Shown: one piece after another, positions 22,956 through 61,079 of the stretch
Numbering within the stretch: position 1 is the stretch's first letter
How the letters are laid out: each line of letters begins with the position of its first letter
The notes under the pieces: generated by a model
Seen by the model: only the letters and a program-made list of their open reading frames with translations
Told to the model about the DNA's origin: nothing
Database searches by the model: none
Source of the DNA: Octopus vulgaris
Taxonomy: Eukaryota
Length of the DNA stretch: 64,000 bases
Assembly: GCA_951406725.2 (NCBI GenBank)
Contig: OX597819.1
Coordinates: forward strand, 91,450,001 to 91,514,000
Reading direction: 5' to 3'
Position numbers and translations under genes: made by a program

Positions 22956-22998
22956 TGTCATTGAAAAGGTTGCAAGTAGCAACGAAAGAGCTTTGACA
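22956..22998 (+). ncRNA. Minimal hammerhead-like motif, U3:A8 core variant
   Basis: TGTCA-TTGAAAA-G-GTTGC(AAGTA)GCAAC-GAAA-GAGC-TT-TGACA; stems I and II pair perfectly. Confidence 0.6.
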
Positions 22999-25226
22999 AA
23001 CGAAAACAAAACAAATGACTTACAAATAATTGATTAGTTAGTTCGATATTGAAACAGTTGATTAATAATGAAGGAGTGGAATTGAACCAGTGCACGTGTT
23101 AATAATATTGGCATAATGACACTCCGTAGACACAAAAATCATCATCATTCAACGTCTGTTGTCCATACTGGCATGGGTTGGACAGTCTGACCAGGGCTGG
23201 CAAGCTGAAAGGCTGCACCAGACTCCAGTCTGATTTGGCATAGTTTCTACAGATGGATGCCCTTCCTAATGCCAACCACTCTGAGAGTGTAATGGGTGCT
23301 TTTATGTGCCACCAGCACGGGTGCCATTTGCATGACACCAATATCTGCCACAACTGCAATTTTACTTGGCTTGATATATATATATATATATATATATATC
23401 ATCATCATCATCGTTTAACGTCCGTTTTCCATGCTAGCATGGGTTGGACGGTTCGACCGGGGATCTGGGAAGCCAGAAGGCTGCACCAGGCTCCAGTCTT
23501 ATCTGGCAATGTTTCTACAGCTGGATGCCCTTCCTAACGCCAACCACTCCGTGAGTGTAGTGGGTGCTTTTTACGTATGTATATATATATATATATATAC
23601 TGGCAGTATGATTCACCTCTGATTCGGTGTTCAAGTACACAATGTTGATAAGTCACAAAAATGACAAAACATTGATATCCATCACTCTTGAATGGGATCT
23701 GGAGTGAGTTGTCTCACCTGTCCATGACTTTCAGGTGTTTTAAGGGAGTAATTGCAGCTTAACGGCAAACACACAAAACATACATTATGTGTGGTTGTTA
23801 ATGTTTATATATATATATATATATATATATATATATATAATACAAATAAGAAAATGGAGAAACAAGTTTAGTTTGTTCATCAACTTTCGGATGAATAAAT
23901 AATCCAAAATTCTAATATCCGAAAGTTGATGAACAAACTAAACTTGTTTCTCCATTTTCTTATTTGTATTATAAATTTACAGTAAAAATATTTCTTTACC
24001 TTCACCCGTTTAATACAATAAGTGAGTTAATTGCATTGCAATTAAAAACATTTAAGTATTAAGAATCTGGGTACTTTACCATCAGTATATTGGATAAATA
24101 CTATCCCATAGTGGGTTACACCCATAACCTCTATCTTACTTTGTATTATATATATATATATATATAGATATATATATATATATATATACTCTTTTACTTG
24201 TTTAAGACATTTGACTGTGGCCACGCTGGAGCACCGCCTTTGGTCGAGCAAATCGCCCCCAGGACTTATTCTTTGTAAGCCTAGTACTTATTCTATCGGT
24301 CTCTTTTGCCGAACCGCTAAGTTACGGGAACGTAAACACACAAGCATCGGTTGTCAAGCGATGTTGGGGGGACAAACACACACACACATACATACGACGG
24401 GCTTCTTCCAAATCCACTCACAAGGCTTTGGTCGGCCCGAGGCTATAGTAGAAGACACTTGCCCAAGTTGCCACGCAGTGGGACTGAACCTGGAACCATG
24501 TGGTTGGTAAGCAAGCTACTTACCACACAACCACTCCTATATATATATATATATATATATATATATATATATATACATACAGATGTGTATATTACTGTTT
24601 CCTTGCCTTGATATCATGTGTTAGTTGCAAAACAAGTGTCACCATTTTGCAAGCAGCATCCTTCATTTCTGATCTTTCATGAAAATATGTCTAGTCATGG
24701 AGAAATATTACCTCATTTGGAATCAGGTGAAGGTTAGTAACAAGTATGACATCCAGCTATTGAAAATCTGCTTCACTAAACTCTATCTGACTCATACAAG
24801 CTCCGAAAAGTGCATATTAAAATGATGATGATATATGTATATATATATATATATATATATATATATATATATATATATATATATAATCAGATTGGAGCCT
24901 GGTGCAGCCTTCCAGCATACCAGCCCAATCAAACTGTCCAACCCATGCCAACATGGACAATGGATGTTAAATGATGATGATGATGATGATTGTATATAAT
25001 ATGCTTCTTTCAGTTTCCGTCTATCAGATCTATTCACAAGGCCAGAACTATAGTAGAAAATACATGTCCACGGTGTTACTGTGTGGGACTGAACTCAAAA
25101 CCATTTGGTTAGGAGCAAACATTTTAATCACACAGCTATATTTGTGTTGCTTACTTTTTTGTTTCAGTTTTTTTTTTTTTTTGCATTGTTTTCATCTGTG
25201 CAGTTTTTTTTCTTCTTATTCTTCAG

Positions 25227-25322
25227 TCGACTGACCAGTAATTTGCCACTAGAACCCACGGATCCACCTCGACCAAGGATTGATTTCATTTGTTTTGTTA
25301 TTGATGTTACAAGAAAGGAAAG
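25227..25322 (+). CDS. CENPM: CENP-M exon 3 (RLTSNLPLEPTDPPRPRIDFICFVIDVTRKES)
   Basis: Polypyrimidine-CAG acceptor, GTTTGT donor; contains LPL...RPRIDF, matching the CENP-M hallmark SLPLP...RPRIDLIVF. Confidence 0.95.
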
Positions 25323-59012: not shown

Positions 59013-60057
59013 GGCGACAAAGGGTCTCTCCCTCAGAGCGAAAGGTAGATTGTATGATGCATGTGTGTGAACTGCCATGCTTCACGGTAATGAAACATGG
59101 GCTGTGACTGCAGAGGACATGCGTAGACTTGAAAGAAATGAAGCTAGCATGATCCGCTGGATGTGTAATGTCAGTGTGCACGCACGACAGAGTGTAAGCA
59201 CCCTGAGAGAAATGCTGGATATAAGAAGCATCAGATGTGGTGTGCAAGAGCGAAGCTTGCGATGGTATGGTCATGTGCTGCGGATGGATGAGGAGAGATG
59301 TGTGAAGAAGTTCCACTCCCAAACAGTTGAAGGTATCAGGGGAGAGGTAGACCCAGGAAGACATGGGATGAGGTAGTCAAGCATGACCTCAGAGCGTTGG
59401 GCCTCACTGAGGCAATGGCGAAGGACCGAGATCTCTGGAGATATGCTGTGACTGCAAAGACTCGGGCTGCTTCCTGCATCAGTTCCGCATAGCCCCTGCC
59501 CATTCAAAGTACCCCGGATCCCAGATCGTCCCGCTGTGCTTGAGGAGCATGAACATGAACGTCGAAATAAATATCAATGGAAATAGTAGTTATGATGCCT
59601 GTGCCGGTGGCACATAAAAAGCACTATCCGAACGTGGCCGATGCCAGGGCCGCCCCGACTGGCTTCTGTGCCGGTGGCACATAAAAAGCACCATCCGAAC
59701 GTGGCCAATGCCTGCGCCGCCCCGACTGGCCCCTGTGCCGGTGGCACATAAAAAAGACCATCCGAACGTTGCCAGCGCCGCCTTGGCTGGCTTCCGTGCT
59801 GCTGGCACGTTAAAAGCTCGAACCGATTGTGACCGATGCCGGACCCCACCCCTGGCACCTGTGCAGGTGGCACGTAAAAGCACCCACTACACTCGCGGAG
59901 TGGTTGGCGTTAGGAAGGGCATCCAGCCGTAGAAACTCTGCCAGATCAGACTGGAGCCTGGAGCAGCCCCTGGCTTCCCAGACCCCGGTCGAACCGTCCA
60001 ACCCGTGCTAGCGCGGAAAACGGACGTTAAACGATGATGATGATGATGATGATGATG
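59013..60057 (+). mobile_element. RTE-clade LINE 3' end, CpG-rich (probably young), with 3' UTR minisatellite and (GAT)n tail
   Basis: MLHGNETWAVT...LRWYGHVLRMDEER; about 70-bp tandem units at 59590-59880. Confidence 0.92.
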
Positions 60058-61044
60058 TTCTCTCACTCGTAAGAAAAAGACCTCTCGTAATAACAAAGCA
60101 AAAGAAGAATTATAAATCCTAAGCAGTTCTCTCCCCTTAAAAGGAAACTTCACCCCCCTCCCCCCATTTCTTAGTAAACTCTCTTTATCTCTCTCTTTTA
60201 CTCCGAAAGCAACTGTAGGTGTAGTAACCAACAGTCGCTAGTCAAGTTAGTCACATCTTTGTGGTTAGAAATGTGGTTAAAAATGAATACTTTGCTCTTT
60301 GTCAACCTGGTATTGAATTAACACCCACTAAATATTTCAGATTTTGTCTAGATCATGTAGTGTCATGATGAGATGCCATTTGTACACACAAACGCACACA
60401 ATCTGACAATATCACAATGGCACACATGCACTGTCATAACACACCTGTGGTGAACAAGTACATATGTGTATGTTGTTACAAAAGACTTTAACAAAAGATA
60501 TATATGTATGTAATCTGTGTGTGTGTATATATATATATATATATATATATATATATATATATGTATGTATATATGTGTGTATGTGTATATATATATATAA
60601 GTGAGTGTGTGTGTGTGTATGTGTATGTATGTATGTATATATATATATATATATATATATACTGGAGTAAACACATAAATGTGAAACAAGGTGGAAAAAT
60701 AAGTACTCAAATACCAGTGGTAGAGTAATATGCTTTATTTAAAGCAGCAGAAAATTCAACAAAACCTGTTGCGACCTGTTCACTGACAAGATGCAGCATG
60801 GAATTTTGTCATTGAACAGGTCGCGTTCTCAAAGTGACAATAATATTTTGACAAATTAAATTTAAATGTTGAAGTGAAACTCATGGATTTTGTGTGTTTC
60901 TTAAATGGCTTATAAACACCTTCCACGCTGCAATTGTTTAAGTGTGTATATATATATATATATATATATATATATGTGACCGCACGTGTAGCGTTGGCGA
61001 TTTTTTTCCTCTGTTTTCCCTTCTTTGGATCTTTCCTTTTCTAT

Positions 61045-61079
61045 GTTTCTGACGAAGAGCTCTGCTCGAAATGTTAAAC
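61045..61079 (+). ncRNA. Minimal hammerhead motif, canonical C3:G8 core
   Basis: GTTT-CTGACGA-A-GAGC(TCT)GCTC-GAAA-TG-TT-AAAC, inside a (TA)n-flanked insert at about 60976-61172. Confidence 0.68.

What the first reader, a model, noticed from the sequence alone, without database searches (positions are those of the whole stretch)
22956..61079. Several dispersed short-element families carry minimal hammerhead ribozymes whose catalytic 3:8 pair covaries (C-G, U-A, G-C)
Seen: at least eight motifs share the layout stem I - N3 TGA N N8 A - one extra purine - stem II - GAAA - tiny near-palindromic stem III - stem I. C3:G8 occurs at 61045-61079(+), 40579-40712(-) and 48691-48716(-, stem II collapsed). 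U3:A8 (TTGAAAA) occurs at 22956-22998(+) and 29519-29555(+, GAAA decayed). G3:C8 (GTGAACA) occurs at 50299-50349(-) and in the half copy 60771-60789(-). Mismatched, probably decayed copies are at 53971-54011(-) and 60805-60855(+). Established: positions 3 and 8 form a Watson-Crick pair in the active hammerhead core, and Penelope-like retroelements carry minimal type I hammerheads thought to act as dimers. Inference: compensatory swaps in families with unrelated flanks imply selection for self-cleavage. This would be a diverse population of non-autonomous ribozyme retroelements that CUGANGA-only searches would miss. Most motifs also have an atypical U at position 17.
Basis: partly seen in the sequence, partly recalled or inferred. 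Interest (0 to 1): 0.85.

Follow-up and report, generated by a model that had tools for sequence, protein, structure and literature searches.

The report
Penelope hammerhead with swapped G-C core
The motifs are the known minimal hammerhead ribozymes at the ends of Penelope-like jumping genes, and one young protein-coding family with about 7,900 copies carries the catalytic base pair swapped to G-C, a form I did not find reported in nature, which likely means that self-cleavage is still under selection.

Summary
The nine motifs are there, and each belongs to a genome-wide repeat family. They are not an independent class of non-autonomous ribozyme elements. Most are terminal repeats (pLTRs) left by 5'-truncated insertions of Penelope-like elements (PLEs). 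The G3:C8 family (7,905 pattern hits against 1 control) was traced to long copies laid out pLTR-ORF(RT, GIY-YIG)-pLTR, 95-98% alike. The U3:A8 families and a C3:G8 sister element are its homologues, so the flanks are related, not unrelated. That makes the covariation real: three Watson-Crick states in one lineage, with stems covarying too. Much is in print: minimal PLE hammerheads, the extra nucleotide, palindromic stem III and natural U3:A8. U17 is ordinary for this class. Natural G3:C8 turned up in none of my searches, but a key paper (Lunse et al.) was not readable. Most short G3:C8 copies were made from uncleaved RNA, so cleavage would matter at another step. Cleavage itself is untested. 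The scan had already noted PLE hammerheads and U:A cores in other genomes; none of the seven notes shown mentions G:C. Verdict: new variant of a known kind, interest 0.45.

The parts
50158..50357 (-). Family B solo pLTR: G3:C8 hammerhead (50299-50349, position 3 at 50342), ORF start codon at 50249, long tail end
   Evidence: 98-99% identical to its best genome hits over the element; same sequence flanks an RT/GIY-YIG ORF in L237
60789..60939 (+). Family B copy with decayed core (U3.C8, GAAA lost), start codon 60905, short tail end
60771..60788 (-). Inverted 5' partner of the 60789 copy, keeps G3:C8; typical PLE inverted junction
22938..23134 (+). Family A1 solo pLTR: U3:A8 hammerhead (22956-22998), start codon 23116
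   Evidence: old family, best hits 75-85% identical
53790..54060 (-). Family A1 copy with decayed core (C3.A8; motif 53971-54011), start codon 53835; ends approximate
29509..29707 (+). Family A2 solo pLTR: U3:A8 core, stem I CUA/UAG, GAAA decayed in this copy, start codon 29626
60974..61172 (+). Family C, about 190-nt element between (TA)n tracts, canonical C3:G8 minimal hammerhead at 61045-61079; coding partner not found
48635..48870 (-). Family D: tRNA-like head (A/B-box-like, by eye), (TAA)n, C3:G8 hammerhead with stem II collapsed here and full in some copies; inverted partner at 48902-48967
   Evidence: ARAGORN finds no tRNA in 5 loci
40579..40712 (-). Family E: old hammerhead family with about 95 nt in loop II, palindromic stem III, C17; position 8 is G, position 3 is C or U among copies
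   Evidence: read by eye

Best explanation
[quoted passage not shown] Shown: family B's motif flanks both ends of an RT plus GIY-YIG ORF, with the predicted cut 56 nt before the start codon; copies end about 30 or about 92 nt into the ORF; most short copies keep the whole motif. Inferred: a capped transcript starts about 22 nt before position 3; reverse transcription starts inside the ORF and runs through the uncleaved ribozyme to the cap, giving the roughly 200-nt solo copies; cleavage acts at another step, most likely cutting tandem or read-through transcripts to unit length, with both pLTR motifs pairing through stem III.
For: pLTR-ORF-pLTR in L237 (motif at 2042 and 6303, ATG 2134, YVDD 4179, SYIGET 5055). 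Pfam GIY-YIG above cut-off, E 1.8e-5. Four long copies 95.5-97.8% alike. A sister element (63% identical over a 131-aa RT stretch, 1,309-aa open ORF) carries the homologous motif with C3:G8, 31 of 31 listed rows. A1, A2 and the sister share the ORF start (ICFNT..HIKNLA). Tree of 15 natural copies: G:C-type clade 99/99, C:G clade 96/93, U:A-type clade 92/92, so at least two double changes. On 10 aligned copies 3:8 is CG 3, GC 3, UA 3, UG 1, stems I-III covary, and U4 G5 A6 and GAAA are invariant. Of 30 copies picked by a pattern outside the motif, 22 keep sequence 5' of the cut, 18 have an inverted partner, 14 the long tail, 0 run upstream. Engineered C3G/G8C partly rescues a PLE hammerhead (PMC11167929).
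Against: No cleavage data. C:G to U:A needs only two transitions and can pass through a U.G wobble, so it is weak evidence alone; G:C is one event on the tree. I chose the 10 aligned rows knowing their states, they are related, and one row is out of register in stems I and III. The young C:G sister has C at position 9 in all 31 listed rows, which hints that the core tolerates decay. The folding model extends stem I with a G3.U17 wobble in family B, a possible trap, and does not return the hammerhead dimer. In the Anolis element, catalytic mutants inserted normally in vitro and no RNA-seq reads ended at the cut. No wholly intact family B ORF was seen among 150 scored hits. No coding partner was found for C, D or E, and no long coding copy for A1 or A2.
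Confidence: 0.75

Rival explanations
1. The motif is a relic that no longer cleaves. It is kept as a protein-binding or promoter structure, or simply hitch-hikes, and the paired 3:8 states arose by drift.
For: Cleavage was dispensable for insertion in vitro. Whole PLE clades lack the motif, and Craig et al. raise the idea that it parasitises PLEs. C9 in the young sister; collapsed stem II in many family D copies; most short copies came from uncleaved RNA.
Against: Both double changes restore a pair that matters in the active fold, while U4 G5 A6 and GAAA stay invariant across families whose stems and loops have turned over. Mismatched rows are scattered over several combinations, as decay would give.
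Confidence: 0.15
2. The short copies are self-propagating non-autonomous ribozyme elements (retrozyme-like), and selection acts on them.
For: Short copies far outnumber long ones: 0 of 30 unbiased copies extend upstream. A fixed 5' end suggests a defined transcript. Subfamilies differ in loop II. Family D has a tRNA-like head. A 2026 preprint derives retrozymes from PLE pLTRs.
Against: Copies are solo or inverted, not tandem arrays; they end inside the ORF start; the same pLTR flanks coding copies. A solo copy that starts at the RNA 5' end would lack anything upstream to re-express it, unless the promoter is internal.
Confidence: 0.1
3. The ribozyme cleaves, but its job is at translation: cutting 56 nt before the start codon either opens cap-independent initiation or removes the cap and switches the RNA off.
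For: Position relative to the ATG. Type I hammerhead cleavage in viral 5' UTRs drives cap-independent translation (PMC13725137, passages). It fits insertion from uncleaved RNA.
Against: No evidence from PLEs; in the Anolis element the cut lies after the start codon. It is compatible with the best explanation and differs only in the last step.
Confidence: 0.25

Closest known systems
Minimal hammerheads (min-HHR) of metazoan PLEs, Cervera and de la Pena 2014 (PMC4209133; main text parts 1-3 of 4 and supplement part 2 of 3 read)
   Same: Short helix I, extra nucleotide between 9 and 10.1, G10.1-C11.1, palindromic helix III, place in pLTRs, mostly solo copies, opposite-strand pairs, U3-A8 variant (about 1,300 hits in Schistosoma), frequent U17.
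   Different: No G3 core in the 44 alignment rows I saw. Here three paired states are tied to one protein lineage, and G3:C8 is the majority state of a young coding family.
Poseidon PAc element of Anolis, Frangieh et al. 2024 (PMC11167929; parts 1-2 of 4 read)
   Same: Hammerhead at the pLTR-ORF junction, two insertion ends inside the ORF start (tail), AT-rich targets, uncleaved RNA as template.
   Different: C3G/G8C there is an engineered partial rescue; here it is natural. The start codon there is within stem II; here it is 56 nt after the cut.
Neptune/Nematis-type EN+ PLEs, Craig et al. 2021 (PMC8557442; introduction and passages read)
   Same: [quoted passage not shown]
   Different: Clade not placed by a tree with named references; the two ends are about 60 nt apart against the 30-40 bp tail described.
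Natural core variants, Perreault et al. 2011 (PMC3088659; section 8 and passages read)
   Same: Natural U3-A8 covariation.
   Different: That section names only U3-A8 for this pair.
Non-LTR retrozymes (bioRxiv 10.64898/2026.07.22.740005; part 1 of 5 read)
   Same: Type I hammerhead, related to PLE pLTRs.
   Different: Defined as tandem repeats with a ribozyme in each unit and no coding part; not the layout here.

Membership tests
PLE minimal hammerhead | Core CUGANGA ... GAAA ... UH | tested here: met
   Literal in families C, D and part of E; with a paired swap at 3:8 in A1, A2 and B; C9 in the sister element
PLE minimal hammerhead | Extra nucleotide between 9 and 10.1, and G10.1-C11.1 | tested here: met
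   G-C in 10 of 10 aligned rows, extra G invariant; extra A in C and D
PLE minimal hammerhead | Palindromic, very short helix III | tested here: met
   Perfect palindromes in B, A2, C, D and E majorities; imperfect (2 pairs around a 2-nt mismatch) in A1 and the sister
PLE minimal hammerhead | Located in the pLTR of a PLE | tested here: met
   Direct for B and the sister; by shared ORF start for A1 and A2; not shown for C, D, E
PLE minimal hammerhead | Self-cleavage as a dimer or with protein help | not testable with these tools
   Needs a bench assay; only contigs, no raw reads, were available
EN+ Penelope-like element (Neptune/Nematis type) | Single ORF with RT and C-terminal GIY-YIG | tested here: met
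   1,025-aa open frame with YVDD and Pfam PF01541
EN+ Penelope-like element (Neptune/Nematis type) | Zn-finger-like linker and CCHH in the endonuclease | tested here: met
   CQSNCAVC, then two Cys before YIG and two His after it, features as
EN+ Penelope-like element (Neptune/Nematis type) | pLTR repeats, inverted 5' partner, optional tail, microsatellite targets | tested here: met
   18 of 30 inverted, 14 of 30 long tail; (TA)n flanks frequent
EN+ Penelope-like element (Neptune/Nematis type) | Clade placement by RT phylogeny | not tested
   No named reference sequences at hand; 102 homologues were nearly all unnamed
Non-LTR retrozyme | Tandem repeats with a ribozyme in every unit, non-coding | tested here: not met
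   Family B copies are solo or inverted and hold the ORF start

The most novel reading that the evidence does not exclude
Family B is the first natural G3:C8 hammerhead, fixed in a recently active retrotransposon. The swap was permitted by the lineage's U17, which avoids a G3-C17 trap. With the U:A and C:G sisters it is a natural rescue experiment showing that PLE ribozyme catalysis is under selection even though insertion uses uncleaved, capped RNA, so cleavage serves RNA processing or translation control.
Probability: 0.3. Interest if true: 0.65.

Novelty: new variant of a known kind. Interest (0 to 1): 0.45.

Why it matters
What PLE hammerheads do is open: cleavage is weak in vitro, was not needed for insertion in the one reconstituted system, and some clades lack the motif. 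A lineage with three paired 3:8 states, one of which needs two transversions through an unpaired step, is comparative evidence that the active fold is being kept. It also supplies ready-made natural constructs, with a near-intact protein, to test this. Practically, searches fixed on CUGANGA miss about 7,900 G:C motifs and a few thousand U:A motifs in this genome alone. The rest of the finding is already in print.

Tried and rejected
Rfam scan: no hammerhead model matched. Window-only shuffle test: not significant by count. First PLE protein found by chance (L099) led to a different, Hydra-like element whose pLTR is not that of any window family. The idea that 40579 is a chimera of two chance halves was rejected: both halves recur together in copies; my scripted 3:8 count for it slipped register and is not used. 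A long open frame across the family B motif was rejected as the real frame: subfamilies break it and the ORF starts downstream. Expression and RNA ends: no RNA holder listed, only contigs, so nothing on starts, cuts or splicing; no splice-like joint was listed, which proves nothing. Two-strand folding did not give the hammerhead dimer. ARAGORN found no tRNA in family D heads. The automatic 5' and 3' boundary calls overran in simple repeats, so boundaries were read by eye or by motif. Lunse et al. (PMC5785218) is not held, and supplement file 1 of PMC4209133 was not searched; either could hold a natural G3:C8.

Full report
1. Observation. The window is G000:C6:91450001-91514000 of a 2.8-Gb animal genome, probably a cephalopod (my impression from the repeats; one protein relative carries an octopus label). 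All nine stretches read as stated. A descriptor with positions 3 and 8 free finds four complete motifs. That count is not above chance in one window: 7 of 60 shuffles reached it, though only 1 of 60 had three Watson-Crick hits. Rfam gives no hammerhead match. The case rests on the genome.

2. Families. B (50299, 60771, 60805): a pattern with 3 and 8 free has 7,905 hits against 1 control, and 91 of the first 100 listed rows are G:C; the other nine are spread over seven combinations, one of them a family A1 copy (by eye). A pattern outside the motif gives 7,366 against 0. Contigs of four public runs, under three coded organism labels, show no other letter at 10% or more at either position, with an 85% likeness filter. 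A1 (22956, 53971): U:A in 26 of 30 best hits, C.A in 3, one not read (the query was a U:A copy). A2 (29519): a pattern that excludes G3 has 5,665 hits against 1; of the first 100 rows 58 are A2 (52 U:A, 4 C.A, 2 U.G), 31 are a C:G family, and 11 are others (by eye). C (61045): C:G in 25 of 25; D (48691): C:G in 16 of 20. E (40579): both halves recur, G8 is kept and position 3 is C or U, so a U.G subfamily is possible (by eye).

3. What family B is. Walking upstream from the motif led through about 1-1.4 kb of repeat-rich non-coding sequence to the end of an ORF with RT and GIY-YIG motifs. L237 shows motif (2042), ATG (2134), YVDD (4179), SYIGET (5055), motif again (6303); its frame is broken. 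L235 has a 1,025-aa open frame with a Pfam GIY-YIG hit above cut-off. Four long copies are 95.5-97.8% alike. The linker CQSNCAVC and the CCHH pattern fit the Neptune/Nematis type as described by Craig et al.; I did not test the clade by a tree. No wholly intact copy was among the 150 scored hits.

4. Homology. A sister element, 63% identical over the RT query and with an open 1,309-aa ORF, has the homologous motif with C3:G8, and C at position 9. A1 and A2 end in the same ORF start as this sister. A tree of 15 natural copies over 236 columns gives a G:C-type clade (99/99; one old copy A.C), a C:G clade (96/93) and a U:A-type clade (92/92; one old copy U.G). With canonical C:G as ancestor (inference), that is two separate double changes. 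On 10 chosen copies the 3:8 pair shows CG 3, GC 3, UA 3, UG 1; 6 of 12 pairs change on both sides; 0 of 500 shuffles reach the covariation score, but 26 of 500 reach the number of such pairs. The rows are related, I picked them knowing their states, and one is out of register, so this illustrates and does not prove. C:G to U:A is two transitions with a wobble in between and is weak alone. G:C needs two transversions and is the telling event, but it is a single event.

5. How the short copies arose. Among 30 copies picked by the ORF-start pattern, 22 keep sequence 5' of the predicted cut, 18 have an inverted partner, 14 have the long 3' end and none runs upstream. About 15 start within a few bases of one point 114 nt before the ATG (by eye). 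The 3' ends at about +30 and +92 match the internal reverse-transcription starts described for the Anolis element. Of 24 copies that stop at that 5' point, 14 have G just before it, where the element has C or T and the background is 23%. After dropping 13 rows by eye (2 read-through, 1 duplicate, 10 where the inverted arm could supply the base), 8 of 11 have G (p about 7e-4). I read this as a copied cap and thus a transcription start (about 60%). A splice acceptor is the rival: a branch-point-like sequence and pyrimidine tract end there, and the D. virilis intron ends at helix I. Either way the template was mostly uncleaved, so these insertions did not need cleavage.

6. Mechanism. Shown: anatomy, family states, homology, insertion ends. 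Inferred: selection acts on the coding masters, not on the scattered copies; a transcript spanning two pLTRs would pair the two motifs through stem III and cut after U17, giving unit-length RNA, as proposed for PLEs; the protein may help, as in Anolis. A translation role is the main alternative for the last step. A G3-C8 variant is reported as less active with C17 than with G17 (PMC3884650, passage, 'data not shown'), so U17 may have let G3:C8 arise; U17 is shared by the C:G and U:A sisters, so it came first and is not a compensation. The folding model still pairs G3 with U17.

7. Literature. Minimal PLE hammerheads, the extra nucleotide, palindromic helix III and U3-A8 are in Cervera and de la Pena 2014; U17 is in 20 of the 44 supplement rows I saw, and none has G3. 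Natural U3-A8 is also in Perreault 2011. G3:C8 appeared only as an engineered variant. Searches for a natural one: of which I saw listings and read passages of PMC7936874 and PMC6155905 without finding it. Lunse et al., on variant PLE hammerheads, is not held (seen only as cited) and may contain it. Earlier notes of this scan report PLE hammerheads and U:A cores in other genomes; they agree and did not change my reading.

8. Verdict. The elements are PLE ends, not a new class. One feature, natural G3:C8 in a young coding family, looks new. New variant of a known kind; interest 0.45.

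Noticed in passing
L239:951-4877 (+), L240-L242; motif at about L239:5388: Young sister PLE with an open 1,309-aa ORF, including a long Asn-rich insert, whose hammerhead has C in place of A9 in all 31 listed rows.
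   Followed up: partly
L177:2350-4476 (+), L176, L178-L180: Intact 708-aa PLE with RWK and DKT motifs (Hydra-like by Craig et al.); its pLTR holds a hammerhead-like motif with C at position 4 and U17, and two 3' ends about 65 nt apart.
   Followed up: partly
window 48635-48870 (-); L116-L135: SINE-like layout: tRNA-like head, (TAA)n, then a PLE-type hammerhead end. Stem II is collapsed in many copies. Could be a PLE-mobilised SINE.
   Followed up: partly
L093, L094, L097, L100 and others (family C): A subfamily of C has C at position 4 of the core.
   Followed up: no
rc of L178, about 5485: Single hammerhead-like hit with A3:U8 and a palindromic stem III, the fourth Watson-Crick state; copy number not checked, may be chance.
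   Followed up: no
L049:377-424 (-), L072:1473-1519 (-): Older, diverged relatives of family B, one G3:C8 and one A3.C8; single copies.
   Followed up: partly
L195, L198, L006: Family B elements abutting family A2 copies in inverted orientation, in L195 on both sides; possible template switching or shared targets.
   Followed up: no
window 55079-55365 and 38640-38707: More A2 pieces: an inverted pair cut inside the motif, and a lone tail.
   Followed up: no
L085 (+) 1571-2116: Uninterrupted 182-aa frame that reads like a dCMP deaminase (my reading), next to a family B copy; possibly a processed gene copy.
   Followed up: no
window 13288-14270, 28467-28931, 45821-46207, 59071-59376, 61776-62624: Fragments that read like a piggyBac-type transposase and LINE reverse transcriptases (my reading); several abundant SINE-like families fill the window.
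   Followed up: no
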